A stretch of 64,000 nt of DNA from Corallincola holothuriorum. GTDB lineage: Bacteria; Pseudomonadota; Gammaproteobacteria; Enterobacterales; Neiellaceae. The position numbers and the translations under genes were made by a program. The stretch lies in NCBI RefSeq assembly GCF_003336225.1, contig NZ_QPID01000006.1:104207-168206 (forward strand). The letters run 5' to 3'. Numbering within the stretch: position 1 is the first letter of the stretch; each line of letters begins with the position of its first letter. The notes below the pieces were generated by a model that was given only the letters and a program-made list of their open reading frames with translations, was not told the origin of the DNA and ran no database searches. Positions 7,574 through 60,424 of the stretch are shown piece after piece.

Positions 7574-9793
7574 ATGAAATTGGCGAATGTCATAAAGGAC
7601 AATGATCGCAGCCGAGCACTGGCTGAGTCTAAATGGATCGTTTTTTTAACCAGTATCATGTTATTGATATTGGTTATCTGGGGCGCGCTTTCTTCCATTC
7701 AGCTTCATTATAATTATCAAAAATCCCTGATGGATTCGGTCACTAAAAGTGTCTTGGCTGAGTATCAGGAACACCTCACGCAACTTCGCTTAACGATTGA
7801 CCAGTTTCAATTTCGCCACGCATCAGCGTTGGCCCAGTTGGTTCTATCCGGTAATCAGACCTCGAAAGATGAGTACATGGAGCTGTTAACGCAGCTGCGT
7901 GAAGAGGTCGATGATGTGCGCTTATTTGCCATTGTCGACAGTTCAGGAAAGGGGGTGTTGTCACAGTTAACAGGGGAATTTTTGCCTGACTGTAGAGAAG
8001 AGATTGATGATACCTTGCTGCGAGGCAGTCAGGAGAACCTGTTTCTGCATCGCAGCCCGAATGGTTTTCACTATGACCTGTTGCAACCCTTACTTGTTGA
8101 TGAGCAGGCCGGTCTGTTTCTTTTTGTTGCTTTTGACCCTGCGGTATTAGAGAGGATATTAACCCAGCACCAACTTCCCTATCAGCAGCTGTTTTTGATG
8201 CGTAGTGACCAGTCCGGCAAGATTGAGTTTGGTACAGAGATCTCGCTTGAAAAAAGTCATGATCAGTCGATCTATATGAGTGGGGAAGAGGTGCATCAAT
8301 TTGATTTCCTCAAGCCCATTCCGGGGACGCGTTGGCAGTTGGCTATTCGTTTGGCTCCTGAATATAACGCGCGAGTTTACTTGGAAAGCATTCTACAAGC
8401 GTTATTGCTTTGGGGAGTGACTACCGGTTTCGTATATCTATTCTATCAGGCCCAGCGCCGGCGCCTGTACAAACAACGGATTATGGAAAAAGAGTTGAGC
8501 TTTAAGACCTCCCACGATGAGCTCACAGGGACCATGAATCGTGCAACTTTTGAGGGGCAGTTAGCAGGATTTATTGCGCAGCACAGTGGCCAACTGATGA
8601 TGGAAGGTGTGGTGTTGCTCATCGACATCGACCAGTTTCAATTGGTGAATAACAGTTTTGGTTACAGCGCTGGAGATAGCTGCCTTAATTTGCTCTCTTT
8701 TGCCCTGCGGCGACAGCTACCAGCGCAGGCAAAAATAAGTCGACTTAGCAGCGATGAGTTCGCTGTGATGTTGCCAGAATTGCATCATGAACTGGCTCAT
8801 GGCTTTGCCGAAAAGGTTAGGCAGCAGATCGAACAGTTCGACTTCACCCACATCGCACCCGATCTTTCTTTGTCAGCCTCCGTTGGCGCTTTCGTTTTAG
8901 ATGGGCAACAGTTAGGTAGTGAGGAGGTATTTAATGCCTTGGCACAAGCTGTTCGCCTTGCGAAATCGAAAGGCGGTAATCGAGTACAGCTTTACCACAG
9001 TGACGATGTCGCGTTATCACAGCATGCACAAGAGATGAATGTTGTTCGCGAGCTGCGAGCTGCACTTAATGACAATCGTTTGCAGCTTTATCGCCAGCGC
9101 CTCAGAGCATTAAGCGATGCATCACAAGCGTCACGTTACGAAGTGCTAGTGCGGTTAATCGATCATCACGGCTCTCTTTTGACGCCTGATAAATTCATAC
9201 CTGCGGCTGAGAAATACGGCTTAATCAGCCAGGTTGACCACTGGGTGATTGAAGCAACATTTGCTGCGATAGCAAAGGACATCGGCGATAATAGCAGTCA
9301 TTACAGTATCAACCTGTCGGGTGTGACCCTCGGCGATAAAGGGATCATCTCTTTTGTTCATACCATGTTGGAAAAATATCAGGTAGCACCGCAACGCATC
9401 GGCTTTGAGATAACGGAAACCTATGCGATCACTCACCTAAGCGCCGCGATCGCCTTTATTGAGCAGATGACAGCGATTGGCTGTGAGTTTTCATTGGATG
9501 ACTTTGGTAGCGGGCTATCATCGTTCAGCTATCTACAGCAACTGCCGGTGCACAACCTTAAAATTGATGGGGTGTTTATTCGTAACATCTGCGACAACCG
9601 CTTGAATCAAGTGTTTGTGGAAACGATGCACCGTTTGGCGAAAGAGATGGGTAAGAAGACCGTGGCAGAGTTTGTAGAAACTGAGAGCGCGCAGCACTAC
9701 CTGTCATCAATAGGGGTGGATTACGCCCAAGGCTATCATCATCATAAACCGGAGTTTTGGTTCGAATACAGTGCGGACGTTACGGGTAGTTAG
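7574..9793 (+). CDS. Membrane-anchored sensor protein with GGDEF-EAL domains (c-di-GMP turnover); the GGDEF site is degenerate
   Basis: TM1 at aa ~22-42, a periplasmic region, then TM2 at ~275-295. GGDEF-like domain has SSDEF in place of GGDEF (RLSSDEFAVML). The EAL domain (YEVLVRL...QRIGFEITE...DDFGSG) looks intact. Confidence 0.8.
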   Translation: MKLANVIKDNDRSRALAESKWIVFLTSIMLLILVIWGALSSIQLHYNYQKSLMDSVTKSVLAEYQEHLTQLRLTIDQFQFRHASALAQLVLSGNQTSKDEYMELLTQLREEVDDVRLFAIVDSSGKGVLSQLTGEFLPDCREEIDDTLLRGSQENLFLHRSPNGFHYDLLQPLLVDEQAGLFLFVAFDPAVLERILTQHQLPYQQLFLMRSDQSGKIEFGTEISLEKSHDQSIYMSGEEVHQFDFLKPIPGTRWQLAIRLAPEYNARVYLESILQALLLWGVTTGFVYLFYQAQRRRLYKQRIMEKELSFKTSHDELTGTMNRATFEGQLAGFIAQHSGQLMMEGVVLLIDIDQFQLVNNSFGYSAGDSCLNLLSFALRRQLPAQAKISRLSSDEFAVMLPELHHELAHGFAEKVRQQIEQFDFTHIAPDLSLSASVGAFVLDGQQLGSEEVFNALAQAVRLAKSKGGNRVQLYHSDDVALSQHAQEMNVVRELRAALNDNRLQLYRQRLRALSDASQASRYEVLVRLIDHHGSLLTPDKFIPAAEKYGLISQVDHWVIEATFAAIAKDIGDNSSHYSINLSGVTLGDKGIISFVHTMLEKYQVAPQRIGFEITETYAITHLSAAIAFIEQMTAIGCEFSLDDFGSGLSSFSYLQQLPVHNLKIDGVFIRNICDNRLNQVFVETMHRLAKEMGKKTVAEFVETESAQHYLSSIGVDYAQGYHHHKPEFWFEYSADVTGS

Positions 9794-20228: not shown

Positions 20229-22547
20229 ATGTACAGTAATACGCCAGCGAGCGTTGCCGCCAGAGTTAATCAAACGCTCCTTATCGACAATCTTGCCAAC
20301 AGTTACATATTTTGCACTAGCGCTCAGCTTGATGGCAAAGATCCCCAAGATGCGCTGTGGTACCTGCGCGATGATTACTATGCGGGGTTATTGTTACGCA
20401 GCCACAGTGATAGCTGGGGAGTGGCATTCAGTATCCGCAAGCTCTATCTGCAAATTAAACCTGAAGCGACATTGTTGCATCTAAAATCTGATGCCCAGTT
20501 ATCGCAAGAGTTGACTGCGCTTATCGCCCATGGCGATGTGATGGTATTCAGAGAAGAAAACCGATATGACCAACTTGCCGCTGCCAGACGTTGGCAAGAT
20601 GTGCCTCCTGCGGGCAGCAGCCAGCTCAGCGTGCCTAAGTCGGCAAAATCGTCACCCTCGAACAATAGCAACAACGCAGGGCCTGGTGTCAGTCAGCCAA
20701 CCGCGCAGGGGGGGAAAGTAGCCACCGCTGCAACAACACCGGTGCTAGAACCGTTAGATCTCTATTGTGCATTGCCTAATGGCAAACCTGCAGCAGGGTT
20801 ACCCTACAAAGCCACGTTAGCCACAGGTCAAGTCTTACAAGGTAAACTTGATGCAAAAGGCTTTGCCCACTTTACCAATTTAGAGCCCAGTAAGGTTGAT
20901 GTTGAATTTGGTGAGCAGCCAGATGAAGCTGCGATTAAGGCCACACGGTCACAAATTGCTTCGGCACTGGATTCCATGTTGGCGGAAGAACGGGCCGAAG
21001 GCGCTGCGTTTGAGTCCACCTATGCCGAACTAAACTTAGCCGAAAAAGGCTTGGTCAGTACAGGCGCGCTGTTTACCGGTATTTGGCGTGGGGTGACGGA
21101 CCTCGCTGAGTTTGCTAACAATGTTTATGAGCTGGGTGCGCCGCAACAACAACTAAAACGCGCAGTGAACGCCGCTTGGTCAGCATACGACACCGATTCC
21201 GACAACTGGGCGGCAACGTTTGCGGATAATTGGCAAGACTCCCAGCACCAAGCGTTTGTGAAAGTACTTGGTTTTGATCCTTCGGCCATCAGTAAAAAAG
21301 ATATCGCTGAGGCGTATGAGATCGCGAGCTTTATTTATGATGACGCTGAAACCAAAGCGTTGTTGATGGAGTTTGGTAAAGACTATGTTAGTGCTCAGCA
21401 CCATACCGAACTTACTGACATGGCGGGCACGGCCGTATTTGAGATCATTTTAGGCGCATTACTTGCTGTTGCGACAGGCGGAGCCGGAACCGCGGCCATG
21501 GCTGCTAGTAAACTGAGTAAGTTAAAAAAATTGGGTGGACTGTTTAAAAAACTTGGTAGTGAACTTAAGAAAAAAGTCCGTTTTAAGAAAAAGTCAGGTG
21601 GGACGAATAGTAAAGTTGAAGAGGCTATTGGTAAGCCTCTGCAAGCGGAAGTCCCTAAGCCCGGAGATAAACCAGAGACGAAAAAAGAGGGGCAGGGAGA
21701 ACCTGAGCGACGAGAAGATCCGCCTCCACCACCGCGATATACAAAAGAGGAGCAGAAGTTCCTTGATGATTATAAAAAGCGGTTCCCAAATACGACACTG
21801 AGTGATGATGAATTAATTGCTCGTCACCGAGCCGGAAAGCGAATGAGTCCGGACACAGACCGATTGCATGATCCAGAGAGAAAGGCCAGACCAAAACCTG
21901 ACATTGGCGCTAAAATTGCAGGTCAAAAAGAAGTGGCGTTTGATGATTTACCTGAAAAACATCAAAGAAAGCTGAAAAAGCTGGAGTATCAAAGAAAACA
22001 GGCTTACGAAGCGAAGTTGGCGGCGGTTAAAGCACAAGATGAAGTAGCCTCTAAGGCTGCGACTCAGCAAATGAAAGATATCAGCGAGAAAATGGGTGAA
22101 GTCAGCGCTGAAGGTGTTATGAAAGTTGAGTATCCTGACTTCAAAAGGGTTAAATCCAATCTGCCTGGTAATGGTAAACAAGGACAATTCGATCAGATTT
22201 ACCATAACCCCAAAACAGGCGAGATAATTGTCGTTGAAGCCAAAGGCGGCGGCGCTACGCGTGGTGTCAGAAAAGGTCTAGATGGTAAATATGCAGAGCA
22301 AGGAACCAAAGCATATCGAGACAGTATTATCCACAATATGAATAAAAAGCTGAATACGGCGTTGGATGATCCTCGTTATGGTGTGGATGACAAATATACT
22401 CGTGATATTGATCAACTTGATGATACTGTTAGTAAATTGAATAAAGCACAACTCAATGATGACAGCATTATCTCCAAACAAGTGAGTCAGCGTTTAAATA
22501 GTGATGGTTCGCTAAAACCAACCGCTGAGTTAATTGATTTTAAATAA
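20229..22547 (+). CDS. Polymorphic toxin-like protein with a C-terminal PD-(D/E)xK (restriction-endonuclease-fold) nuclease-like domain
   Basis: AAGGAG Shine-Dalgarno 5 nt before the ATG at 20229. No signal peptide. Middle hydrophobic helix (AVFEIILGALLAVATGGAGTAAMAA), then a Lys/Glu/Pro-rich linker (PPPPPRY). The C-terminus reads GQFDQIYHNPKTGEIIVVEAKGG, a D...ExK pattern. Two immunity-like paralogs follow. Confidence 0.6.
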   Translation: MYSNTPASVAARVNQTLLIDNLANSYIFCTSAQLDGKDPQDALWYLRDDYYAGLLLRSHSDSWGVAFSIRKLYLQIKPEATLLHLKSDAQLSQELTALIAHGDVMVFREENRYDQLAAARRWQDVPPAGSSQLSVPKSAKSSPSNNSNNAGPGVSQPTAQGGKVATAATTPVLEPLDLYCALPNGKPAAGLPYKATLATGQVLQGKLDAKGFAHFTNLEPSKVDVEFGEQPDEAAIKATRSQIASALDSMLAEERAEGAAFESTYAELNLAEKGLVSTGALFTGIWRGVTDLAEFANNVYELGAPQQQLKRAVNAAWSAYDTDSDNWAATFADNWQDSQHQAFVKVLGFDPSAISKKDIAEAYEIASFIYDDAETKALLMEFGKDYVSAQHHTELTDMAGTAVFEIILGALLAVATGGAGTAAMAASKLSKLKKLGGLFKKLGSELKKKVRFKKKSGGTNSKVEEAIGKPLQAEVPKPGDKPETKKEGQGEPERREDPPPPPRYTKEEQKFLDDYKKRFPNTTLSDDELIARHRAGKRMSPDTDRLHDPERKARPKPDIGAKIAGQKEVAFDDLPEKHQRKLKKLEYQRKQAYEAKLAAVKAQDEVASKAATQQMKDISEKMGEVSAEGVMKVEYPDFKRVKSNLPGNGKQGQFDQIYHNPKTGEIIVVEAKGGGATRGVRKGLDGKYAEQGTKAYRDSIIHNMNKKLNTALDDPRYGVDDKYTRDIDQLDDTVSKLNKAQLNDDSIISKQVSQRLNSDGSLKPTAELIDFK

Positions 22548-22561
22548 GAGAACGAACAGTG

Positions 22562-23395
22562 ATGATTAAAAGACACTTTACTCCTAAAAATATGGCCAGA
22601 GTTGGTGTAGTGATAGATAGGTTTGAAGAAAATACGGCGCTTGTTATTAATAGCGCTAAAAATAAAAACAGTGGTGAAGTGCTAGGTATTTGTATTCCCA
22701 AGGCTATTAATGCCTTTGCCGAGTCGATCGTCGCTGAAAAACCACCTGCTACCGCTTTACGCTACCTGACCTTTGCCAAAGAACTGGGCGCTGCCAACTT
22801 TACCTTTGTGATGCGGATGGAAGAGACGTTTCAAACCTCGTTGCTTGGTGAACAGTTTGAAATGACTGGCGCCCATAAGGTGAGTTACGTTGATACGGAT
22901 GTTTGGTTGAAGAGTTTTTTCTGTGCGCAGATACTACGCGACAGTGCCGCTATCGATGCGCTGAATGAAGTGGATGAAACGGTATTTTTTAACGCCGAAC
23001 TTAAACCCGATGCGTTGGATCTGCGTATGGTCGATTTGATGCAAGGTATATATAAAGGTCACCGAGATCTTAATACTTTATTGACTAATGCATGGGAGGC
23101 GGAGCCTGAAGACAGTCGGGTTGAGTATGTGGCTAGCCACTTTATGCCTCTGTTGTCTGTGATGCGGACTATTTTTACACCGGATGCGGAAGCTGAATAT
23201 AATAAAGAGATGCGTGAAGCGGTGGAGCTGCATAAAAAGTTCTGGAGCCAGAGCGAAGATCATGAGTGGGAGCCGGAAGCTTGGGTATCGCTGCCGCTTA
23301 TAGCCATGGCTGCGCTGGCTTATGACCATAAAGGCTACGAACTGGATTTTGAGACCGATTACATTCCTGATTGGTTGGTGAAAAAGCAGTTTTAG
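22562..23395 (+). CDS. Putative cognate immunity protein, paralog 1
   Basis: Lies immediately after the toxin stop. Shares long identical blocks with the next gene (YLTFAKELGAANF, DTDVWLKSF.CAQILRDSAAID, LPLIAMAALAYDHKGYELDFETDYIPDWLVKKQF). Confidence 0.5.
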   Translation: MIKRHFTPKNMARVGVVIDRFEENTALVINSAKNKNSGEVLGICIPKAINAFAESIVAEKPPATALRYLTFAKELGAANFTFVMRMEETFQTSLLGEQFEMTGAHKVSYVDTDVWLKSFFCAQILRDSAAIDALNEVDETVFFNAELKPDALDLRMVDLMQGIYKGHRDLNTLLTNAWEAEPEDSRVEYVASHFMPLLSVMRTIFTPDAEAEYNKEMREAVELHKKFWSQSEDHEWEPEAWVSLPLIAMAALAYDHKGYELDFETDYIPDWLVKKQF

Positions 23396-23424
23396 TTCCT
23401 CCATTGGTGTACTTGTTAGAAACT

Positions 23425-23453
23425 AAAAAGCGGACATGGTTGTCCGCTTTTTT
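23425..23453 (+). terminator. Rho-independent terminator (agcggaca-tggt-tgtccgct + T6)
   Basis: 8-bp GC-rich stem followed by six T residues directly after immunity paralog 1. Confidence 0.75.
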
Positions 23454-23505
23454 GATGAAAATTATGTTTGCCATTGTAATTAACTCGTAGTTTTGAATAA
23501 GTTGA

Positions 23506-24339
23506 ATGATGATAGGAAGACATTATCAAGAAACACACACTCATTTACTTCAGAAGGCGTTGGATAAGTTCGAAAAACGTCTGCCAAGGAAAATAAATAG
23601 TATAAAGAAGGAAGATGATGGAGAGTTGCTAGGCTCTTCTATTTCACAAACTGTAAATGTCTTTTGTGAATCTATAGTGGCTGAGAAAGATCATCTAACC
23701 ATATTACGTTTTTTAACTTTTGCTAAAGAGCTGGGTGCAGCAAATTTTGCTTCTGTGATGAGGATGGAAGAAACCTTTGATGTGCATCTCTTAGGTGAAA
23801 CCATTACGCTAACAGGGGCTCATAAGGCCTGTCATGTCGATACAGACGTATGGCTAAAAAGTTTTTATTGTGCACAGATATTACGGGATAGTGCTGCTAT
23901 CGATGTCCTAAATGAGGTGGATGAAACGGTCTTTTTTGCGGCCGAAATTAAACCTGATGCGTTGGATCTGCGCATAGTGGACTTGATGCAGGGTATTTAT
24001 AAGGGCCATAAAGAACTTACTACCTTGCTGAATAGTGCACTCCAGGCGGAGCCTGAAGATAGCCGTTTAAGTTATGCCTTTCATCTATTAAATCCGCTTC
24101 TTTCTATTATTCGCACTATTTTTACGCCAGGTGCGGACGCTGAATTCAATAAAGAGGTGCGTGAAGCGGTAGAGCTGCATAAAAAGTACTGGGGTCAGGA
24201 AGATGAGAAATGGGCAGCCCGCGGTTGGGTGTCATTGCCGTTAATCGCCATGGCGGCGCTGGCGTATGATCACAAAGGCTACGAACTGGATTTTGAAACC
24301 GATTACATTCCTGACTGGTTAGTGAAAAAGCAGTTTTAA
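23506..24339 (+). CDS. Putative cognate immunity protein, paralog 2
   Basis: 277 aa, roughly 65% identical to paralog 1 over the whole length; the last ~40 aa are identical to paralog 1. Confidence 0.5.
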   Translation: MMIGRHYQETHTHLLQKALDKFEKRLPRKINSIKKEDDGELLGSSISQTVNVFCESIVAEKDHLTILRFLTFAKELGAANFASVMRMEETFDVHLLGETITLTGAHKACHVDTDVWLKSFYCAQILRDSAAIDVLNEVDETVFFAAEIKPDALDLRIVDLMQGIYKGHKELTTLLNSALQAEPEDSRLSYAFHLLNPLLSIIRTIFTPGADAEFNKEVREAVELHKKYWGQEDEKWAARGWVSLPLIAMAALAYDHKGYELDFETDYIPDWLVKKQF

Positions 24340-24368
24340 TTCCTCCATTGGTGTTCTTGTTAGAAACT

Positions 24369-24397
24369 AAAAAGCGGACATGATTGTCCGCTTTTTT
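24369..24397 (+). terminator. Rho-independent terminator, duplicate copy
   Basis: aaaaagcggacatgattgtccgctttttt. It differs by one base in the loop from the copy at 23425..23453. Confidence 0.75.
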
Positions 24398-24437
24398 GAT
24401 GACAAGTGATGCGAAATTTATCAGTGCATTTTGTTAA

Positions 24438-30970: not shown

Positions 30971-33031
30971 ATGCCTATAGATATGGGTCTAGCAATGGGT
31001 GTACTTACCATCATCGGTGTTATTTTTGGCGTCATATTCGTACTTGCGATGATGTTTAAAGCGTTTTACGAGAAAGTGCCCCAAGGAACAGCGTTGATTG
31101 TGAATGACATGAGTTCAACGCCAAAGGTGAAGTTCACCGGCGGTATGGTGATCCCCGTTATCCACAAGAAAGAGCTGATGAAGATCTCTTTAATCACTCT
31201 GGAAGTGGATCGAAGAGGACGTGATGGTTTGATCTGCCGCGACAATATGCGTGCGGACATTACCGTGGCTTTCTACCTGCGCGTTAATGAAACCCAGGAA
31301 GATGTATTGAAGGTCGCTAAGGCGATTGGCGTAGAGCGTGCGTCTGACAAAGCGGCGGTGAATGAGTTGTTTAACGCCAAGTTCTCCGAAGCGCTGAAAA
31401 CCGTCGGTAAGCAGATTGAGTTTGTACGTTTGTTTGAAGATCGTCTGACCTTCCGTGAAAAGATTGTTGAGGTGATTGGTGATGATCTTAACGGTTACAT
31501 TCTTGAAGATGTTGCCATCGATTACTTAGAACAAACACCAAAGAGTGCCTTAGATCCTACCAATATTTTGGATGCTCAGGGCATACGAAAAATTACCGAG
31601 CTGACGGCAACTCAGAACGTGCAAACCAACGAGTTTGAGCGTAATGAAGAGTTGGCGATCACCAAGAAAAACGTGGAGACCAAAGAGTCTATGTTGGCGT
31701 TAGAGCGTCAACAAGCGGATGCCGAAGCGCGCCAGGCTCGAGAAATAGCCACGATCCAAGCCCGTGAAGAAGCTGAAACCATTAAGGTCAGTGAAGAGGA
31801 GCGTCTGCGTTCTGAGCAAGCTCGTATTAAGACGCAGCAGGATCTTGATATTCAGGAAGAGAATCGTAAGCGTGAAGTAGAGATTGCGGTCGAAAATCGT
31901 CAGCGTGCCGTAGTGATTGAGAAAGAAAAAGTAACGCGGGCGCAGGATCTGGAAGTGGTCTCCCGCGAGCGTGAAGTTGAGCTTGAGCGTATCGCCAAAG
32001 AAAAAGACCTGGAAGTTGAGCGTACCAATATTGCTAACGTGACCCGTGAGCGTGTGGCAGTAGAGAAAACAGTGGCTGAAGAGGAGGAGCGTATTAAAGA
32101 GGTGCGTGAAATCTCAGAAGCTGACCGCTCTAAGCAGGTGTTGATCTTAGAGGCGCAGGCGCAAGCCGAAGAGGAGCTGGTTAAGCAGGTTAAGCAGGCC
32201 GAAGCCGATGAAACCAAAGCCAAGCATAAAGCCGTTGAACTGAATGTACTGGCGCAAGCTGAACTGGAAGCGGCAGCGAAGAAAGCCGATGCGATGAAAC
32301 GTATGGCTGAAGGTATTGAAGCGGAACGTGCGGCGCCAGGGTTTGCTGATGCCCGTGTGCAGGAAGCAAAAGCAGAAGCACTTGAGAAAGAAGGTGCTGC
32401 TGAAGCACAAGTACTCGCGAAGAAGATGGAAGCTCAGGCCCAAGGTGATGAGCAGCAAGGGTTGGCGAAAGCCCGTGTGATTGAAGCGCAAGCGATTGCC
32501 AAAGAGAAAGAGGGGCTGGCCGAAGCCAAGGTGCTGGAAGAGAAGCTGGGTGCCCAAGCCAAAGGCGACGAACAGCAAGGTCTCGCAGAAGCCGCCGCAG
32601 AAAAAGAGAAAGGTTTGGTGGCTGCCACAGTTATTCGCGAGAAATTGACCGCAGAAGCTGAAGGTTTAGTGGATAAGTTCAAGGCGATGGATGCTATGAG
32701 CGATCAGGCGCGCAGCCACGAAGAGTTCCGTATGCAGCTTGAGAAGCAGTTTGAAGAAGCGATTGCGTCTATCGGCGCGAGCAAAGAGATCGCCAAAGAG
32801 CAGGCTGAAGTTCTGTCTGCTGCGTTGTCGAATGCCAATATCGACATCGTTGGCGGTCAGGGCGAGTTCTTTGATTCGTTCGCCAAGTCTCTGTCTGTTG
32901 GTAAATCAGTTGAAGGGATCGTGGGTAAAAGCCCCGTGGTGCAGGAGCTGTTAAGTAAGGTGATGGCGCTGGGTGGCGGGAAAGGGGGCAAGAAACCTTC
33001 TAGCTCAACCTCATCAACCGATCTGTTGTAA
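30971..33031 (+). CDS. Flotillin / SPFH (band-7) family protein, YqiK-like
   Basis: N-terminal TM helix and SPFH domain (VPQGTALIVN...). Long EA-rich coiled coil with internal flotillin-type repeats (EGLAEAKVLEEKLGAQAKGDEQQGLAEA appears twice). Confidence 0.85.
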   Translation: MPIDMGLAMGVLTIIGVIFGVIFVLAMMFKAFYEKVPQGTALIVNDMSSTPKVKFTGGMVIPVIHKKELMKISLITLEVDRRGRDGLICRDNMRADITVAFYLRVNETQEDVLKVAKAIGVERASDKAAVNELFNAKFSEALKTVGKQIEFVRLFEDRLTFREKIVEVIGDDLNGYILEDVAIDYLEQTPKSALDPTNILDAQGIRKITELTATQNVQTNEFERNEELAITKKNVETKESMLALERQQADAEARQAREIATIQAREEAETIKVSEEERLRSEQARIKTQQDLDIQEENRKREVEIAVENRQRAVVIEKEKVTRAQDLEVVSREREVELERIAKEKDLEVERTNIANVTRERVAVEKTVAEEEERIKEVREISEADRSKQVLILEAQAQAEEELVKQVKQAEADETKAKHKAVELNVLAQAELEAAAKKADAMKRMAEGIEAERAAPGFADARVQEAKAEALEKEGAAEAQVLAKKMEAQAQGDEQQGLAKARVIEAQAIAKEKEGLAEAKVLEEKLGAQAKGDEQQGLAEAAAEKEKGLVAATVIREKLTAEAEGLVDKFKAMDAMSDQARSHEEFRMQLEKQFEEAIASIGASKEIAKEQAEVLSAALSNANIDIVGGQGEFFDSFAKSLSVGKSVEGIVGKSPVVQELLSKVMALGGGKGGKKPSSSTSSTDLL

Positions 33032-33128
33032 GCCCTATGGCAAGCGTCTTTGTGCGGAGTTAAATCCGCATTAGGACGGTCAATATGGCTGGCCAGTTTC
33101 ACCTGACGTCTCAGGAACACATCATGGG

Positions 33129-36100
33129 ATGTCAGGGTGGCCAAACTGTTTCGACAGCACGCAGGGAGTACACAGGGTGCAGGATAAAAACCAAGATAAA
33201 CAAGGCGCTGAAGCCGGTATCGTTGATAAGGCGGTGACTGAAGGTGGCGCTTATGAAGTGATCCGTAAGCGCTTGGAAGGGCAAGGGAAGCAGCTTCGAG
33301 AAGAAGTCGATGCCCTTAACCAGTCACGTATCAGTGAGTTTGGTAGTACCGAAATGAAAGTGCTGGGGCGTTTGCGTACCCGCACGGAAAATAACTGTAT
33401 TGCCCAGGATATCGTCTGCGTTGGCGAACACCTGCTGTTTGGCTTCAACGTGTTTATGGGGCTAAAAAAAGAGACTCACATCAGTGATGTATTTGCCCTC
33501 TATCATTTCCAAAAAACTGCTGATGGCTTTGATTTAGAGCCCGCGCGCAGTGACGATACGTTTTTGGCCAATGCAGCCTTTGTGCGTGAGTTTAATGAAC
33601 TGTACGCCTATTACAAAAATACTCGTTTGTCGCAGCTGGTGGTCAAAGATGGCAAGTTACTAGCCAGCTTCCAGATCGGCGAACGGGAAGAAGATATTCG
33701 TGTGTTTCGTTGGTCGATCAGTGCAGATGGCAAACGTGTAGAGTATATCGACAACCGTGGTGAGCGTGATATCGCCTTGCCATCGGCTTATGATTTTGAA
33801 TGGCAGGCAACCAGTCGTGAGAATGCTGTTCATGGTAAACATCCACACCTGAATATTCTCGATACCCTGTTTGTGGAAACGGTCGGTGGTGATCTGACCG
33901 TTAAGATAGAAGACAACACCGCGTCCGGAGAGGGGATCTACGCCGAAGCTGTGGTGGATCAGACCCAGTCGCTGGATGACGCCGATGTGTTTTATGCCGA
34001 GGTCGGCCACCTGATACTGCTAAAAATCTTGCCTTATCGAGAAGAGACCTGGCGCTACTTGTTATTTAACAAGCTGACCCATGAAGTGTTGCGTGTCGAT
34101 GCTATTGGTCAGGCATGTCGGCTGTTGCCGGAAAATCACGGCATTATTTTCCCTGGCGGCATTTATCTGGAATCAGGCGGGCTTAAACTGTTTGATGAAG
34201 ACATGACTGGCATGCGTTTCCGTCGTGTGCGCCGTTCGCCCAATGGCGAAGATGCCATGTATGTGTTCTACAACCCTGAGAACGCAACGATCGCCTTGTT
34301 TGCGTACAACCTGATTGAGAAAAGCCTGCAGGTGCCGTTACTTGGCCATGGTTACGCCATGCTCGATGATGGCACCATGGTGATTTTCTATGCCGAAGGG
34401 GATGAGCCAACCCGCGTGCATCCGATGCAGGTTTGGGAAACGCCCTATTGCAGTGATGAGCACGCCAGTAAAGCACCGGTGAAAGACAGCGTCTATGGCC
34501 GCATTGGCAATGCTGAATTAGTGCGTGCTATTTCCGATTTTTACAGTGTATGCCGTGCCGTGGATGAGCAATCCGTGTCGGCGCGTTTATATGATGAACT
34601 GTGCAAAAATACCTTGCGCCTGTTTGATAGCTACTACTGGTTGGACAATCAGGAAGTACAGGGGATCTCAGATCTGCTACACGAGATTGCCAAAACCAGT
34701 GAACTGGTGCTGGATGAGTTTGAAAAAGTAGAAAGTATTCGTCAGCAGTCAGAGTTGGCAATGGCTGAGGCGGAACAACAGCAAAAAGCGCTGCTCAAAT
34801 CGATGAATGTCGATAGTTGGCACAGCGCTGAAGCTTTTGTTGATGCCCTCGACAGCATTCGCAAACTGCGCGGTCACTTACTGACGATCCGTGACTACCG
34901 CTATATCAATACCTCACGTATTGATGAGATGGAGCAGCAGCTACAAGAAACCGGTGACAAGATATCACTGAAGACCGGCGAATTTCTCTCTTCAGCTGAA
35001 GCCATTGCCCCCTACCATGATCGTCTAGGGACGCTGGAGCAGGCGCTAGCCGATGCGAATTCGATTGTAGAGCTGGAGGCACCTGTCGCCGGACTCGAAA
35101 AGATGGCTTCAGAGCTGGATCTGCTATCTGAGCTGATGACCAGCCTGAAAGTGGATGACGCACAGCAGCGTACCGCCATTGTTGAGGCGATCTCTGAGGT
35201 TTACGCCAAGTTAAATCAGAGCCGTGCCCGTGCCGGACACAAGCAAAAAGAGCTCGGCTCGGCAGAAGCTGTGGCTGAGTTTTCCGCGTCGTTTAAGTTG
35301 TTTTCTCAAGGTATTACCAATGCCCTGAGTGCGGCCACCACGCCGGAGAAGTGTGATGAGCAGCTGACGCGCTTGCTGGTGCAGCTAGAAGAGCTGGAGA
35401 GCCAGTTCAGTGAGCATGACGAGTTCTTGGCCGATATTCTTTCCAAGCGGGAAGAAGTTTACGAAAGCTTTGAGGCGCAGAAACAAGCGCTACTTGATGA
35501 GCGCCAGCGCAAGGCACAGAACCTGCAGGATGCCGCCAGCCGTATTCTCAGTAACATTCAAAAACGGGTACAGCGTTTCACCGAGCCTGATGAACTGAAC
35601 AGCTTTTATGCCGCCGATCCGCTGGTGATGAAAGTACGGGAGATCAGCGAGCAGTTGCGCGGACTCGATGATCAGGTGAAAGCCGATGATATCGATGCTC
35701 GTTTTAAGATGGGTAAAGATCAGGCGCTGAAATCGCTGCGAGATAAGAGCGAGATCTATGAAGAGGGCGGTAACGTCATCAAGCTGGGACCACGGCACAA
35801 ATTTAGTGTGAATACCCAGCCGCTAGATATCACTATCTTACCGCGTAATAACCAGCTTAATTTCCACCTCACCGGTACCGACTATTTCGAGCCAGTAGAA
35901 GATAAGCGGCTGGCTGAATTGAGCCAATACTGGCAGGCGGATATCGAATCTGAATCTGCTGAGATCTACCGCGCTGAATATCTGGCTGGATTGATCCTCG
36001 ATAGCGCTGATATGCATGAGCATGGCCTTACACCAGAGTTACTAAGCAGCGCTGCCAGTGAGCAAGAGGCGCTGGTTAAGATCGCCAGAGAGTTTGCTGC

Positions 36101-38549
36101 GCCAAGATATAAAGAGGGCTATCAGAAAGGGGTTCATGACCATGATGCTGCGCTGATCCTGGCCAAAGTGTTGCCTTTACGGCAAAGCGTCGGCCTGTTG
36201 CGGTTTGATCCGCTGAGTCGTGGTTTAGCGATTATCTTTTGGGCTAACAATCAGCAACAAGCTTGGGCGAAAAGCTGCCCACAGCGGGCACGCTCGGCAT
36301 TGACTATGCAAACCCTGTTTGCCAGTGGCGAAGCACTCGTTTTACTGGAACAGGAGCTGCTGAGTCAGCTGAATAGCTATCTTGAATTGCATACCATTCC
36401 GGTCAGCCAGAGCGACTGCCAACGTGCGGTGAGCTATTTGGTGCGTGAGCTGGCCAACGACAGGGTGGAGTTTGAAACCAGTAAGTACGCCCGTCAGTTG
36501 GCAGATGAGCTAAAGCAGTCTCTTAAAGCTGGCAAAGCGCTGCGCACATTTGAAGAAGCATTGCAGCAGTTGGTTGGCAAAGCGGGGGAGCGCTGGGCGT
36601 TAACCTACAGCTGGTTAACCGCGATGTTAGCCAGTAAGAAAGCAGGCGCCGCGGATACAGCGGAGGCATTAGCCGCCTACGTTCCTGAAGCCGTGGCGAT
36701 CATTAACGCCGAAGAGAGAGTTTCCCGTCGTCACAGCGAAGCGGATCTTAATTTCAGTGTGGATGGCCTCTTGGGTGAACATAGCCGCATTGACAGTCAG
36801 TCACTGCAGTTGCGCTTGGATAGCTTCCTAACCAACTATCAGCTGCACAGAGATCAGTTTGTGCCGGCCTATCATGAGTACCTCAATACGCGACAGCAGG
36901 TGATCAGCGATCGTCGTAAACAATTAAAGCTGCATGAATTTGTTTCGCGACCACTTAGTTCATTTGTTCGTAACCAGCTGATTAATCAAGTTTACCTACC
37001 AATTATTGGCGATAACTTGGCGAAACAGATGGGCACCGTGGGCGAAAACAAGCGCACCGACTTAATGGGCTTGTTGATGATGATCTCGCCGCCCGGTTAC
37101 GGTAAAACCACGTTGATGGAGTATGTGGCGAACCGGCTGGGTTTGATCTTTATGAAGATCAACTGTCCGTCGCTGGGGCATGAAGTGGATTCATTGGATC
37201 CAACGCAAGCGCCCAACGCTACCGCGAAGCAGGAGCTGGAGAAGCTCAACCTGGCGCTGGAGATGGGCAATAACGTGATGCTGTATCTTGATGATATTCA
37301 GCATACCCACCCCGAGTTCTTGCAGAAATTTATCTCCTTGTGTGACGGTACCCGTCGTATTGAGGGGGTATGGCGTAACGAATCAAAAACCTACGATATG
37401 CGCGGCAAGAAATTCTGTGTGGTGATGGCGGGCAACCCATACACTGAATCCGGCGAAGTGTTTAAGATCCCCGACATGTTGGCGAACCGTGCCGATATCT
37501 ACAACTTAGGTGAGGTGCTTGGCGGCATGGAAGCGCCGTTTGCACTGAGCTATATCGAAAACAGTCTGACCTCGAATCAGGTGCTGCAACCGCTAGCAAC
37601 CCGAGATATGCAGGATCTGTATCGCTTTGCCAAAATGGTAGAAACCGACACCATCAATACCAATGACCTTAGCCATAGTTATAGTGGCGCCGAGGTTAAT
37701 GAGATCCTGGATGTGCTGCGTAAATTGATGGTGGTGCGTGATGTGCTGCTGAAAGTAAACAAGCAATACATCGTTAGTGCCTCCCAGGCGGAAAAATACC
37801 GTACCGAGCCCGCGTTTAAGTTGCAGGGTTCATACCGCAACATGAACAAGATGGCGGAGAAGATCTCGGCGGTGATGAACGACGCCGAGCTAAAACAGGT
37901 GATTGCTGATCATTATCTCGGAGAGGCACAACTACTTACCGGCGGGGCGGAAGAGAACCTATTAAAACTGGGTGAAATGCGCGGCACACATACTGATGCA
38001 GAAGCGGCTCGTTGGCAGCAGATCAAGGCCGACTTTGCCCGTAGTAAAGCGATGGGCGGCGACGATGCCGATACTGGCATGCAGGTGGTTGGACAACTGC
38101 ACGACTTAGTTAGCAGCGTAAAAGGCGCGGCAGAACTGATGGTCAATAAGCCGGAAGTTGCGGATAGCGGTAGCGAGCAAACCTCACAAGCGATCGTTCA
38201 GTTGTCAAAAGAGCTGTCTCAGGCACAACAAGCGGCTAGCGATCGTCATATTGAAGTGGTTGAAGCACAGCACTCGGCATCCCGTGCCAAGTTCAATAAG
38301 TCGGCCCGCGCTTTTCTGACGTTGTCGAAGGTGTTCGCCAAAGCGTTATCCCGTGTTGAAGTGGTGAATCAGCCCATTCCTGGGTTAGAAAATCAGCTGG
38401 CGACGCTAACTCAGAGCTTGCAAACCATTGCTCACTCGTTGGCGCCAGATGATAACGATCAGATCCAGATCTTGTTGCGTAATATTGGCAAGTTGGAGCA
38501 TGAATTAGCCGCGCTTAAAGGCGGTAAGCAGAGTGCAGAGGATGCATGA
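33129..38549 (+). CDS. Giant multidomain protein (1806 aa) with a C-terminal-proximal AAA+ ATPase module; function unknown
   Basis: Approximate architecture: aa 1-480 beta-rich, 480-1300 alpha-helical, ~1320-1480 AAA+, then a ~300 aa helical tail. Walker A ISPPGYGKTT, Walker B VMLYLDDIQH, sensor-1 VVMAGNPY and RADIY are contiguous, which is AAA+ and not an SMC/ABC layout. An alternative in-frame GTG start at 33177 follows an AGGGAG Shine-Dalgarno. Confidence 0.7.
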   Translation: MSGWPNCFDSTQGVHRVQDKNQDKQGAEAGIVDKAVTEGGAYEVIRKRLEGQGKQLREEVDALNQSRISEFGSTEMKVLGRLRTRTENNCIAQDIVCVGEHLLFGFNVFMGLKKETHISDVFALYHFQKTADGFDLEPARSDDTFLANAAFVREFNELYAYYKNTRLSQLVVKDGKLLASFQIGEREEDIRVFRWSISADGKRVEYIDNRGERDIALPSAYDFEWQATSRENAVHGKHPHLNILDTLFVETVGGDLTVKIEDNTASGEGIYAEAVVDQTQSLDDADVFYAEVGHLILLKILPYREETWRYLLFNKLTHEVLRVDAIGQACRLLPENHGIIFPGGIYLESGGLKLFDEDMTGMRFRRVRRSPNGEDAMYVFYNPENATIALFAYNLIEKSLQVPLLGHGYAMLDDGTMVIFYAEGDEPTRVHPMQVWETPYCSDEHASKAPVKDSVYGRIGNAELVRAISDFYSVCRAVDEQSVSARLYDELCKNTLRLFDSYYWLDNQEVQGISDLLHEIAKTSELVLDEFEKVESIRQQSELAMAEAEQQQKALLKSMNVDSWHSAEAFVDALDSIRKLRGHLLTIRDYRYINTSRIDEMEQQLQETGDKISLKTGEFLSSAEAIAPYHDRLGTLEQALADANSIVELEAPVAGLEKMASELDLLSELMTSLKVDDAQQRTAIVEAISEVYAKLNQSRARAGHKQKELGSAEAVAEFSASFKLFSQGITNALSAATTPEKCDEQLTRLLVQLEELESQFSEHDEFLADILSKREEVYESFEAQKQALLDERQRKAQNLQDAASRILSNIQKRVQRFTEPDELNSFYAADPLVMKVREISEQLRGLDDQVKADDIDARFKMGKDQALKSLRDKSEIYEEGGNVIKLGPRHKFSVNTQPLDITILPRNNQLNFHLTGTDYFEPVEDKRLAELSQYWQADIESESAEIYRAEYLAGLILDSADMHEHGLTPELLSSAASEQEALVKIAREFAAPRYKEGYQKGVHDHDAALILAKVLPLRQSVGLLRFDPLSRGLAIIFWANNQQQAWAKSCPQRARSALTMQTLFASGEALVLLEQELLSQLNSYLELHTIPVSQSDCQRAVSYLVRELANDRVEFETSKYARQLADELKQSLKAGKALRTFEEALQQLVGKAGERWALTYSWLTAMLASKKAGAADTAEALAAYVPEAVAIINAEERVSRRHSEADLNFSVDGLLGEHSRIDSQSLQLRLDSFLTNYQLHRDQFVPAYHEYLNTRQQVISDRRKQLKLHEFVSRPLSSFVRNQLINQVYLPIIGDNLAKQMGTVGENKRTDLMGLLMMISPPGYGKTTLMEYVANRLGLIFMKINCPSLGHEVDSLDPTQAPNATAKQELEKLNLALEMGNNVMLYLDDIQHTHPEFLQKFISLCDGTRRIEGVWRNESKTYDMRGKKFCVVMAGNPYTESGEVFKIPDMLANRADIYNLGEVLGGMEAPFALSYIENSLTSNQVLQPLATRDMQDLYRFAKMVETDTINTNDLSHSYSGAEVNEILDVLRKLMVVRDVLLKVNKQYIVSASQAEKYRTEPAFKLQGSYRNMNKMAEKISAVMNDAELKQVIADHYLGEAQLLTGGAEENLLKLGEMRGTHTDAEAARWQQIKADFARSKAMGGDDADTGMQVVGQLHDLVSSVKGAAELMVNKPEVADSGSEQTSQAIVQLSKELSQAQQAASDRHIEVVEAQHSASRAKFNKSARAFLTLSKVFAKALSRVEVVNQPIPGLENQLATLTQSLQTIAHSLAPDDNDQIQILLRNIGKLEHELAALKGGKQSAEDA

Positions 38550-39250
38550 TGAGTGAGTTAAGCGTATTAGAAAAACAACTGATTGATAGCTTCGATGATC
38601 TTAAGCTCAGTGACAGTGAGCGGGCGGAGCTGAAGGAGCTTGCTCGACCATTAAGCGCAGATAAAGTGAGATTTATTCGCAACAAAGCGTTTGCTATTGC
38701 CCGTGACAAAATTGCTACGGCTAGTGGAGATGATAATGCTGCTGAAGCGTTGTCGGCGCTTGGTTGGCTGGAGCGGGTGGTGAAAACCCTTGATCAGGCC
38801 ACGCGCAAACAAGCGATCACCTCGGGAGCTTATTTCAGCCCAGGCACGGCTTGCATGAAGAAGATCGTTGACCTTTGTCACCAAGCCAAGCGCAACATTG
38901 ATATCTGTGTCTTTACTATCTCAGATGATCGCCTCAGCGCTGCGATTAAGAAAGCCCATGATCGCGGCGTGCAGGTGCGGATCATCACGGATAATGATAA
39001 AGCCAATGACAGTGGCAGTGATGTTGACCAGTTAGCCAGACAAGGGGTGCCGTTGCGTATGGATCGCACTGAATACCATATGCACCACAAGTTTGCGTTA
39101 TTTGACCGCGTAACCTTGCTTAACGGCAGTTTTAACTGGACCCGCAGCGCGACAGATAAGAACGAAGAGAACATTTTGGTGACGGACAGTGAAACGCTAT
39201 GTGCTTCCTATCTGGAACAGTTTGAGCGTTTGTGGCAGAAGTTCGCCTAA
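38546..39250 (+). CDS. Phospholipase D-family nuclease (single HKD motif, Nuc/Zucchini-like)
   Basis: Single HxKx4D...N motif (HMHHKFALFDRVTLLNGSFNWTRSA) in a ~150 aa PLD core after a ~90 aa helical N-terminal extension. Its ATG overlaps the TGA of the giant gene (ATGA). Confidence 0.8.
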   Translation: MMSELSVLEKQLIDSFDDLKLSDSERAELKELARPLSADKVRFIRNKAFAIARDKIATASGDDNAAEALSALGWLERVVKTLDQATRKQAITSGAYFSPGTACMKKIVDLCHQAKRNIDICVFTISDDRLSAAIKKAHDRGVQVRIITDNDKANDSGSDVDQLARQGVPLRMDRTEYHMHHKFALFDRVTLLNGSFNWTRSATDKNEENILVTDSETLCASYLEQFERLWQKFA

Positions 39251-59087: not shown

Positions 59088-59095
59088 ATATCCTC

Positions 59096-60421
59096 CTAAC
59101 GTTCACCGAAGGCGCTGCTGATGTTGGTGAAGATCGGCTTCCATAGGTATTGGAAGACAGTTTTTTCGCCGGTCACGATATCAGCCTCAGCGGTCATGCC
59201 TGGTATCAACCCAAATTGTTCGGGATTATCACGAAAATAGGGTTTTTCGATCGCTATTTGTACTTTGTAAAATACCCCGCCGTGCTCGTCGGCATCCGTG
59301 GTTGGTGATATCTTTTTTACAACGCCATCAAGGGCGCCATACCGACTGTAATCAAAGGCATCAACTTTAATTCGAGCCGTCTGTCCTACGGTAACAAAGC
59401 CGATGTCACGAGGTGATAGCTTGGCTTCCAGCAAGGCCGTTGGTGTTGTGGGAACAATAACTGCCACCGTGCCTCCCGGGGCAACAACACTGCCCGATGA
59501 GGTAGACGGTATTGATTGGATGACTCCATTTACCGGAGACAAAACGGTGGTTTGGGCGACCTGTTGGCCAGATGATTTCAGCCGAGCGCGAACCGCTAAC
59601 AGTTCTGCTTGCGCGTCAGCACGTTTTTCACTGACTTCAGTAAAAAGCGCCGCTTGCTTCTGTTTTAACTGTTGGCGGTCATTAGCGAGATTTTTAGCCA
59701 AGACAAGTTCTTTTCCTTCCATTGCCTTTAGTTCACGCAAATAGCTATCAGTTTTTTGTTGGGCATCTAATATTTGTACTTGAGAAACGGCTTTCTGACC
59801 GCTCAGCGAGTTCATCATCGCCAACGTCTTTGTTGAAGCACTGATCTGATCTCTGAGTGCTGGTAATTCAGACTTAATGGCATCGAGTTCAGCTTGCGTT
59901 TTTGCGAGCCCCGTTTCTGCTAGTGCTACGCTAGCATTGAACTCTGCTTGCATGTGACCAAAAGCCTTTATCTGCTGAGATACAAGGGAAGGGTAGGTGG
60001 TTGCATAATTGGATACATTCATTTCCCGACGTTCAATAAATGCATTGTAGCGTTCTATCTGTAGCGTTAAGTTTGCTTGTTTGCTCTCTAATTCTTCCAC
60101 TGCGGATTGACTATCAATGGCTAAGAAATTGGCCAAGACATCGCCTTTTTTTACGACATCACCCTCTTCCACGTTAATTGTCGCCAGTGTTCCACCTAGT
60201 TGGCTTTGTATTATCTGTCTGTGACCAAGAGGCACTACTTGACCTTTTGCCTTTGCTACCTCCTCGATAGACGTGAAAATTGACCACGTTGCTATTAATA
60301 AAATTGCGCCACTCACAATAAAGATAATGTTACGTATTAGGCGCTGTTCTGCAGGGGATTCGACTGCATCAGCGAATTCATACGCGTGCCATACTCGTTG
60401 ACGAAGAGGGGATTGCTGCAT
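59096..60421 (-). CDS. Type I secretion periplasmic adaptor (HlyD family)
   Basis: AGGAGG Shine-Dalgarno. N-terminal TM helix, a long coiled coil, and C-terminal beta domains. Confidence 0.85.
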   Translation of the reverse strand: MQQSPLRQRVWHAYEFADAVESPAEQRLIRNIIFIVSGAILLIATWSIFTSIEEVAKAKGQVVPLGHRQIIQSQLGGTLATINVEEGDVVKKGDVLANFLAIDSQSAVEELESKQANLTLQIERYNAFIERREMNVSNYATTYPSLVSQQIKAFGHMQAEFNASVALAETGLAKTQAELDAIKSELPALRDQISASTKTLAMMNSLSGQKAVSQVQILDAQQKTDSYLRELKAMEGKELVLAKNLANDRQQLKQKQAALFTEVSEKRADAQAELLAVRARLKSSGQQVAQTTVLSPVNGVIQSIPSTSSGSVVAPGGTVAVIVPTTPTALLEAKLSPRDIGFVTVGQTARIKVDAFDYSRYGALDGVVKKISPTTDADEHGGVFYKVQIAIEKPYFRDNPEQFGLIPGMTAEADIVTGEKTVFQYLWKPIFTNISSAFGER

Positions 60422-60424
60422 AGA

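What the first reader, a model, noticed from the sequence alone, without database searches (positions are those of the whole stretch)
22562..24339. Tandem duplication of the immunity-like gene with mosaic divergence
The two ORFs are 278 and 277 aa. They share long identical blocks (YLTFAKELGAANF, DTDVWLKSF, AQILRDSAAID, ETVFF, KPDALDLR, VDLMQGIYKGH, RTIFTP, REAVELHKK and a ~40 aa identical C-terminus). Their N-terminal 60 aa and several internal stretches differ (TFVMRMEETFQTSLLGEQFEMTGAHKVSYVD versus ASVMRMEETFDVHLLGETITLTGAHKACHVD). This pattern fits an expanding immunity repertoire, for example protection against diversified toxin alleles, or gene conversion that homogenizes the 3' ends.
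Basis: seen in the sequence. Interest (0 to 1): 0.6.

Follow-up and report, generated by a model that had tools for sequence, protein, structure and literature searches.

The report
Tandem Imm49 toxin-immunity gene pair
Two old, diverged copies of a known immunity gene (Imm49) sit behind a nuclease-type toxin gene in a swappable cassette of the marine bacterium Corallincola holothuriorum, which is an ordinary layout for bacterial warfare loci, with clear signs of past recombination.

Summary
ORFs 22559/22562-23395 and 23506-24339 are paralogs, 69% identical in protein and 70% in DNA. Both are clear members of Pfam Imm49 (PF15575).

They follow a 772-aa polymorphic toxin. Its last ~265 aa carry the Tox-REase-6 signature (E, D, ExK, Q, Y), and Tox-REase-6 is the published partner of Imm49. 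Comparison with C. spongiicola shows that window ~21359-24426 (toxin C-terminus plus both immunity genes) is one exchanged, low-GC cassette. The sister species has a different toxin end and a single, distant Imm49.

The duplication is not recent: silent sites are saturated over most of the gene. The mosaic has three layers:
- Constraint is uneven across the family, so the identical 37-aa C-terminus is largely purifying selection.
- The first ~45 codons have a separate ancestry.
- A 156-nt 3' block that includes the terminator is 94-97% identical, which suggests gene conversion.

Arrays of two or more Imm49 genes occur in 6 of 11 related loci. This is a new member of a known kind, a small homogeneous polyimmunity array. 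No function was tested. No promoter was found for copy 2, which lies behind a strong terminator.

The parts
21359..24426 (+). Exchanged toxin-CT/immunity cassette: the distal half of the toxin gene, both Imm49 genes and both terminators. GC is 0.43 against 0.48-0.49 in the flanks.
   Evidence: blastn against the syntenic C. spongiicola locus L004 gives 94% identity up to 21358 and 97% from 24427, with nothing in between.
20229..22547 (+). Polymorphic toxin gene (DU002_11260, 772 aa from the ATG; the ORF opens at GTG 20223). The N-terminal ~470 aa are shared with Corallincola and Agarivorans proteins that carry other C-termini.
   Evidence: No Pfam domain was found.
21750..22547 (+). Toxin C-terminal module (residues 510-774), Tox-REase-6-like. 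It has 300 cluster representatives elsewhere, always at the C-terminus of carrier proteins.
22098..22316 (+). Predicted catalytic core carrying the conserved E626, D657, E672-x-K674, Q693 and Y698 (774-aa numbering).
   Evidence: Conserved columns of alignment A4. Predicted secondary-structure order alpha-beta-beta-beta-alpha.
22559..23395 (+). Imm49 copy 1 (DU002_11265). It starts 12-15 nt after the toxin stop codon and is the presumed cognate immunity gene.
   Evidence: AF2 model pLDDT 91.
23303..23458 (+). 3' near-identical block of copy 1 (last 93 nt of the CDS plus 63 nt non-coding). It pairs with 24247-24402 with 10 mismatches in 156 nt.
   Evidence: permutation p = 2e-4. Third-position identity is 0.82 in codons 258-279 and non-coding identity is 0.97.
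23425..23458 (+). Terminator-like hairpin plus T-run after copy 1.
   Evidence: dG -17.8 kcal/mol.
23459..23505 (+). Unique 47-nt spacer between the two repeat units. It has no sigma-70-like site and no toxin remnant.
23506..24339 (+). Imm49 copy 2 (DU002_11270), the presumed extra (orphan or spare) immunity gene.
24247..24402 (+). 3' near-identical block of copy 2, including the terminator-like hairpin at 24369-24402.
   Evidence: (dG -20.1 kcal/mol).

Best explanation
The two ORFs are anciently diverged paralogs of the Imm49 immunity family. They are carried together on a horizontally exchanged toxin-immunity cassette.

The upstream 772-aa protein is a polymorphic toxin. Its conserved N-terminal part presumably serves delivery, by an unidentified route. 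Its last ~265 aa form a Tox-REase-6-type (PD-(D/E)xK-like) nuclease module.

Copy 1 abuts the toxin gene and is most likely the cognate immunity protein, blocking the nuclease by direct binding in the producer and its kin. Copy 2 most likely acts as a spare immunity protein against variant REase-6 toxins fired by competitors. That makes the pair a minimal homogeneous polyimmunity array.

The mosaic has three layers:
1. Constraint is uneven across the family. The C-terminal core is strongly conserved, while helices 1-2, the beta-hairpin and a few loops evolve fast.
2. The first ~45 codons have a separate ancestry. Either the bodies of old paralogs were homogenised, or a 5' segment was swapped in.
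3. The last ~156 nt, including the terminator, were homogenised recently by gene conversion.

Shown here: family membership, toxin-immunity co-occurrence, cassette boundaries and divergence patterns. Inferred: nuclease activity, neutralisation by binding, which copy is cognate, the role of copy 2, and gene conversion as the cause of layers 2 and 3.
For: Family:
- Both copies hit Pfam Imm49 far above threshold.
- Both keep all 14 family-invariant residues.
- The AF2 model is confident (pLDDT 91) and mostly helical.

Toxin:
- The same C-terminal module lies directly upstream of Imm49 genes behind unrelated N-termini in L001, L003 (next to a VgrG) and L005.
- The module has 300 representatives, fused to eCIS-core, RHS, PT-HINT and DUF6861 carriers.
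- Its conserved columns are E, FD, ExKG, QG, Y, matching the Tox-REase-6 signature in Zhang et al. 2012.
- The confident model (pLDDT 95.7) places these residues on an alpha-beta-beta-beta-alpha core.

Cassette: flanks are 94-97% identical to C. spongiicola, which has a different REase-like toxin end and one distant Imm49 at the same site. The cassette has low GC.

Age and selection: pS 0.66, dS about 1.6, dN/dS 0.14.

Mosaic:
- Differences between the copies track family variability (p = 9e-7).
- In residues 1-45 the pair is 36% identical, but copy 2 is 64% identical to a Pseudoalteromonas homolog. From residue 46 on the pair is 69-78% identical against ~52% to others. Informative sites run 2:15 versus 65:12, p = 2e-8.
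- Third-position identity climbs from 0.41-0.49 to 0.82, and the non-coding tail is 97% identical.
- The independent L003 pair shows the same pattern: a ~187-nt near-identical 3' flank beside 70%-identical proteins.

Arrays: 6 of 11 loci have two or more Imm49 genes, including a toxin-less pair in L002.
Against: - No function was tested.
- Copy 2 follows a strong hairpin terminator, and no sigma-70-like promoter was found in the spacer, so its expression is uncertain.
- Its nearest relative anywhere is copy 1; no known toxin-linked Imm49 elsewhere resembles it closely. That does not fit simple capture from another strain.
- The residue-45 breakpoint was chosen after looking at the data. Faster evolution of the N-terminus (dN/dS 0.37-0.60 against 0.11-0.23) explains part of the signal.
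- The max-chi-square test on synonymous codons alone is only p = 0.03.
- No T6SS or other delivery genes lie next to the toxin in the window.
Confidence: 0.7

Rival explanations
1. Copy 2 is a silent leftover: an orphan immunity gene kept after an earlier toxin end was displaced. It is no longer expressed and gives no benefit.
For: - It lies behind a strong hairpin terminator.
- No promoter-like site is found in the 47-nt spacer, and the Shine-Dalgarno sequence is weak.
- Orphan cassettes left by displacement exist in this family: L001 has a truncated toxin-CT fragment in front of its second Imm49.
Against: - The reading frame is intact, with all 14 family-invariant residues.
- Pairwise dN/dS is 0.14.
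- There is no toxin remnant beside it.
- Multi-copy loci recur in 6 of 11 cases, including pairs without any toxin, which argues for retention by selection.
Confidence: 0.15
2. A recent in-place tandem duplication was followed by rapid adaptive divergence of one copy, driven by positive selection for a new specificity.
For: - The two copies are each other's closest relatives overall (69% against 53% or less to others).
- The repeat unit includes the terminator.
- The N-terminus has a raised dN/dS.
Against: - Silent sites are saturated over codons 1-120 and remain at pS about 0.55 beyond that. This is far more than the 3-6% divergence between the species' flanks.
- dN/dS is below 1 in every segment of every pair.
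- In residues 1-45 each copy is nearer to homologs in other genera than to its partner.
Confidence: 0.06
3. Both copies are needed together, for example as a hetero-oligomeric immunity complex against the one toxin.
For: Pairs are frequent (6 of 11 loci). Both copies are under purifying selection.
Against: - L005 (Thalassomonas) has the same toxin module followed by one Imm49 only, and four further loci also show one copy.
- In the sister species, one Imm49 follows the toxin.
- The terminator between the copies argues against obligate co-expression.
Confidence: 0.06
4. The genes are not immunity genes at all but have an unrelated cellular or enzymatic role.
For: No direct functional data exist. 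The only published neutralisation test of an Imm49 protein found in the searchable library is in a retracted paper.
Against: - Strong Pfam Imm49 membership, with no significant enzyme-family hit in Pfam or NCBIfam.
- Repeated placement directly after the same toxin module behind unrelated carriers.
- Fold match to PA2201.
Confidence: 0.03

Closest known systems
Imm49 / Tox-REase-6 toxin-immunity pairs (Zhang et al. 2012, PMC3482391)
   Same: Both ORFs match the Imm49 model. The upstream toxin end has the E, D, ExK, Q, Y signature and sits at the C-terminus of varied carrier proteins. The immunity gene lies immediately downstream.
   Different: The carrier N-terminus here matches no described trafficking domain. 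Pfam has no Tox-REase-6 model, so membership rests on motif and context. The predicted Imm49 fold contains one beta-hairpin besides the helices.
V. parahaemolyticus RhsP locus: REase-6 fragment VP1520 followed by two Imm49 genes VP1521/VP1522 (PMC6156420, a RETRACTED paper; only its gene-order description is used here)
   Same: Two adjacent Imm49 genes are associated with a REase-6 toxin domain.
   Different: There the REase-6 piece is a fragment inside an Rhs locus with other immunity genes. Here the toxin is intact and stands alone. That paper's experimental claims cannot be relied on.
Homogeneous polyimmunity loci (Zhang et al. 2012)
   Same: Same-orientation tandem paralogs of one immunity family, with no toxin cassette between them and copy number varying between relatives.
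   Different: There are only two genes. They are attached to an intact toxin gene rather than forming a separate locus. A terminator hairpin lies between them, so a single polycistronic message is doubtful. Imm49 is not among the families that paper lists as forming prominent homogeneous arrays.
Orphan immunity arrays made by sequential effector displacement in Vibrio cholerae T6SS clusters (Kirchberger et al. 2017, PMC5361080)
   Same: An extra immunity gene lies downstream of an effector-immunity pair, in a cassette exchanged by recombination between conserved flanks.
   Different: In V. cholerae the orphans closely match immunity genes of other strains and belong to different families. Here the extra gene's nearest relative is its own neighbour. 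No effector remnant is left and no T6SS cluster is adjacent.
PA2201 (PDB 2fef), founder of the Imm-PA2201 immunity family
   Different: Only 13% sequence identity and no sequence-level match. Foldseek support is weak (TM 0.44-0.46).

Membership tests
Imm49 (Pfam PF15575) | Sequence matches the family model above the curated threshold | tested here: met
   87.5 and 79.5 bits against a cut-off of 30.1, covering profile positions 9/10-217 of 217.
Imm49 (Pfam PF15575) | All-alpha fold (Zhang et al. 2012) | tested here: met
   AF2 model with pLDDT 91 and pTM 0.91 has 13 helices plus one short beta-hairpin at residues 90-104.
Imm49 (Pfam PF15575) | Encoded immediately downstream of a Tox-REase-1 or Tox-REase-6 toxin | tested here: met
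   Copy 1 starts 12-15 nt after the toxin stop codon, and copy 2 is the next gene. The same adjacency is seen in L001, L003 and L005.
Imm49 (Pfam PF15575) | Neutralises the cognate toxin | not testable with these tools
   Needs co-expression or binding assays.
Tox-REase-6 (Zhang et al. 2012) | Conserved signature E, D, ExK, Q, Y | tested here: met
   Conserved columns of the 34-sequence alignment A4 are E117, F147-D148, E163-x-K165-G166, Q184-G185 and Y189. The published signature was read.
Tox-REase-6 (Zhang et al. 2012) | Restriction-endonuclease (PD-(D/E)xK) fold | tested here: inconclusive
   [not shown]
Tox-REase-6 (Zhang et al. 2012) | C-terminal position in polymorphic toxins with varied trafficking or pre-toxin domains | tested here: met
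   300 representatives, with the module at the C-terminus of proteins from ~400 to over 3,000 aa. Carriers include eCIS_core, RHS, PT-HINT and DUF6861.
Tox-REase-6 (Zhang et al. 2012) | Nuclease activity | not testable with these tools
   Needs biochemistry.
Homogeneous polyimmunity locus (Zhang et al. 2012) | Tandem same-orientation paralogs of one immunity family, not interrupted by toxin cassettes | tested here: met
   Two Imm49 genes with no toxin remnant between them.
Homogeneous polyimmunity locus (Zhang et al. 2012) | Short intergenic distances implying one polycistronic message | tested here: inconclusive
   The gap is 110 nt and contains a 12-bp-stem hairpin with a T-run. No promoter-like site precedes copy 2.
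Homogeneous polyimmunity locus (Zhang et al. 2012) | Extended array of four or more genes | tested here: not met
   Only two Imm49 genes are present in the whole window.
Orphan immunity array by effector displacement (Kirchberger et al. 2017) | The orphan gene closely matches the immunity gene of an effector-immunity pair in another strain | tested here: not met
   The best non-self relatives are 53% identical or less, and its nearest relative is copy 1. Only residues 1-45 are closer to other genera, at 64%.
Orphan immunity array by effector displacement (Kirchberger et al. 2017) | Remnant of the displaced effector next to the orphan gene | tested here: not met
   tblastn finds no toxin-CT fragment in the window apart from the intact gene. 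One is present in L001 at 8953-9297.
T6SS effector-immunity module | Encoded next to VgrG, PAAR, Hcp or adaptor genes, or carrying a known T6SS marker domain | tested here: not met
   None is found near the toxin or among the large ORFs of the window. The Agarivorans homolog also stands alone. A protein sharing the C-terminal module follows a VgrG in L003, so T6SS delivery remains possible.

The most novel reading that the evidence does not exclude
Imm49 arrays might be maintained by a specific cassette mechanism. In this reading, the conserved 3' end of the gene plus its terminator acts as a fixed homology anchor at which gene conversion or recombination repeatedly homogenises or adds immunity genes. 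The first ~45 codons (helices 1-2) would be kept apart as a trans-specifically shared specificity module. Imm49 loci would then behave as a small programmed diversity system rather than a passive duplication. The same 3'-flank identity in the unrelated L003 pair, and the shared N-terminal types across genera, are what keep this open.
Probability: 0.1. Interest if true: 0.55.

Novelty: new member of a known kind. Interest (0 to 1): 0.3.

Why it matters
It matters modestly. The locus adds a clean natural example of a Tox-REase-6/Imm49 cassette on an undescribed carrier protein. It also provides a pair of old paralogs whose differences concentrate in helices 1-2, the beta-hairpin and a few loops. 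That makes a ready-made map of candidate specificity determinants for a toxin-immunity family with no solved structure related by sequence. The only published neutralisation test found in the searchable library is in a retracted paper. Comparing the two Corallincola species also gives exact recombination boundaries for toxin-end exchange. None of this changes current understanding of polymorphic toxin systems.

Tried and rejected
- The first genome scan, with the two-sequence alignment, found no relatives. The second, with the 34-sequence alignment, found 7 loci.
- The third homolog search, with the toxin C-terminus, returned nothing because of the word index. The exhaustive search was used instead.
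- Sequence searches of the PDB found nothing for either protein or for the toxin-CT profile.
- Pfam and NCBIfam gave no domain for the toxin.
- The promoter scan found no site ahead of copy 2. The scan also missed the obvious hairpins, which were confirmed by folding.
- The context of the C. platygyrae homolog P0003 was not on record.
- Positive selection was looked for in four paralog pairs and not found: dN/dS is below 1 everywhere.
- The idea that the identical C-terminus by itself proves gene conversion was rejected, because that region is the most conserved part of the whole family. Only the last ~21 codons plus the non-coding tail show silent-site homogenisation.

Full report
**Observation.** The window holds two same-strand ORFs at 22559-23395 (278 aa from GTG; 277 aa from the ATG at 22562, the NCBI start) and 23506-24339 (277 aa). 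They are 69% identical in protein (191/278, E = 2e-144, one 1-aa gap) and 70% in DNA. The first shared block is LTFAKELGAANF, because copy 2 has F where copy 1 has Y. The identical C-terminal run is 37 aa. The repeat unit does not stop at the stop codon. It continues for 63 nt at 97% identity and includes a 12-bp-stem hairpin with a T-run (dG -17.8 and -20.1 kcal/mol). The two units are separated by a unique 47-nt spacer. The block occurs only twice in the window.

**The partner toxin.** The upstream 772-aa protein has no Pfam domain. Its homologs in Corallincola and Agarivorans share only the N-terminal ~60%, and some carry another C-terminal domain, PF02267. That is the architecture of a polymorphic toxin. 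Its last ~265 aa recur directly upstream of Imm49 genes behind unrelated N-termini:
- L001: a 521-aa protein, 47% identical over 265 aa.
- L003: a 696-aa protein that follows a VgrG.
- L005: Thalassomonas.

**The cassette.** C. spongiicola has the same neighbourhood. DNA identity is 94% up to window position 21358 and 97% from 24427, with nothing alignable in between. At that site it carries a different REase-like toxin end, one distant Imm49 (258 aa) and a 161-aa ORF. So window 21359-24426 is one exchanged unit containing the toxin C-terminus, both Imm49 genes and both terminators. Its GC is 0.43 against 0.48-0.49 in the flanks.

**Age of the duplication.** Synonymous differences are saturated: pS is 0.66 overall and above 0.8 in codons 31-120, with dS about 1.6. 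The flanks of the two species differ by only 3-6%. The copies therefore did not arise by a recent duplication in this genome. They were acquired as an old pair or assembled stepwise. Overall dN/dS is 0.14 and both copies keep all 14 family-invariant residues, so both look functional.

**The mosaic has three layers.**
1. Positions where the copies differ are the positions that vary across the family. Mean conservation is 0.48 at differing positions and 0.63 at identical ones (p = 9e-7). The C-terminal 40 residues are the most conserved part of the family. The identical C-terminal protein block is therefore largely purifying selection. On the model, the differences sit in helix 1 (72%), helix 2 (45%), the hairpin (47%), helices 8-9 (~50%) and the 230-244 loop (53%). 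Helices 4-7 and 12 are nearly invariant.
2. The first ~45 residues have a different history. The pair is 36% identical there, while copy 2 is 61-64% identical to Pseudoalteromonas homologs. From residue 46 on, the pair is 69-78% identical against ~52% to all others. Informative sites switch from 2:15 (pair: copy-plus-outgroup) to 65:12, with Fisher p = 2e-8. The switch is significant (p < 0.05) for 13 of 14 outgroups. The N-terminus does evolve faster: dN/dS is 0.37-0.60 against 0.11-0.23, significant in three of four paralog pairs, and never above 1. Faster evolution alone does not explain why the shared stem of the two copies almost vanishes there. Either the bodies of old paralogs were homogenised, or a 5' segment was swapped in. 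The breakpoint was chosen after inspection, so the p-values are optimistic.
3. Silent-site identity rises from 5' to 3'. Third-position identity is 0.49, 0.41, 0.53, 0.62 and 0.82 in successive segments, and the non-coding tail is 97% identical. The best segment is 156 nt with 10 mismatches (window 23303-23458; permutation p = 2e-4). A synonymous-codon max-chi-square test alone gives p = 0.03. The independent pair in L003 has the same feature: a near-identical ~187-nt stretch covering the last 60 nt of the gene and its terminator, beside proteins only 70% identical, with no similarity upstream. Recent gene conversion of the 3' end is the simplest reading.

**How common this is.** Among 11 loci of this Imm49 subfamily, six have two or more copies: the window, L001, L002, L003, L008 and L010. 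Five have one, and two of those are on short contigs. L001 shows the classic orphan layout, with a 115-aa truncated toxin end in front of the second Imm49. L002 has two overlapping Imm49 genes with no toxin. Two Imm49 genes after a REase-6 fragment were also described at the V. parahaemolyticus RhsP locus, but that paper is retracted. Zhang et al. describe 'homogeneous polyimmunity loci' of tandem paralogs as back-up against toxins of non-kin strains. Kirchberger et al. describe immunity arrays built by effector displacement.

**Mechanism proposed.** The toxin is delivered to neighbours by an unidentified route. No T6SS genes lie nearby, although a relative of the toxin module follows a VgrG in L003. 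Its C-terminal nuclease presumably cuts nucleic acid in the target cell. Copy 1 binds and blocks the nuclease in the producer. Copy 2 is kept as spare immunity against variant alleles. These steps are inferred from family knowledge and context, not shown. The main caveat is that copy 2 lies behind a strong terminator and no promoter was found for it.

**Verdict.** This is a new member of a known kind and of modest interest.

Noticed in passing
[not shown]
   Followed up: no
window 23174-23203 (+): A near-consensus sigma-70-like site (TTTACA, 18 nt, TATAAT; 11 of 12) lies inside the copy 1 coding region, about 300 nt before copy 2. The equivalent place in copy 2 lacks it (TTTACG ... TTCAAT). 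It could drive copy 2 only through the terminator.
   Followed up: partly
L001 5321-11039: A 303-aa multi-pass membrane protein is duplicated at 96.7% identity on either side of the toxin / Imm49 / truncated toxin end / Imm49 block. A whole module seems to have been duplicated there.
   Followed up: partly
window ~21435-21515 (toxin residues ~405-431): A Gly/Ala-rich hydrophobic stretch (GTAVFEIILGALLAVATGGAGTAAMAA) lies just before the variable toxin end. Similar stretches occur in the VgrG-linked L003 protein and in P0057. It may be a conserved pre-toxin or membrane-interacting segment.
   Followed up: no
L004 8001-11297 (C. spongiicola): At the same chromosomal site the sister species has a distinct REase-like toxin end (GFDQVW ... 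IIIVEAKGPG). It also has a distant 258-aa Imm49 and an unassigned 161-aa ORF, which may be a second, unrelated immunity gene.
   Followed up: partly
L002 7154-8850 (Pseudoalteromonas sp. SWXJZ94C): Two Imm49 genes overlap by 4 nt with no toxin upstream, and this genome holds at least four Imm49 homologs. It looks like a toxin-less immunity array. A DNA methylase gene lies nearby.
   Followed up: no
L003 10404-10856: A YezG-like gene (an immunity family for a different toxin type; weak hit) follows the two Imm49 genes. This suggests a mixed immunity array downstream of the VgrG-linked effector.
   Followed up: no
window 30971-39250 (+): A three-gene block: a 686-aa protein with no Pfam hit, a 1806-aa DUF3686 / DUF7902 / AAA ATPase, and a 234-aa PLD-like nuclease. 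It looks like a candidate defence or DNA-repair system.
   Followed up: no
window 49932-62536 (-): A 3051-aa cadherin/Ig-repeat adhesin is followed by HlyD-type and ABC-transporter genes, as in a type I secretion adhesin operon.
   Followed up: no
Homologs of the toxin N-terminus (P0003, P0015): Some proteins sharing the toxin's N-terminal carrier end in PF02267 (from memory, the ADP-ribosyl cyclase family) instead of the nuclease module. This confirms that the carrier accepts unrelated toxic ends.
   Followed up: no
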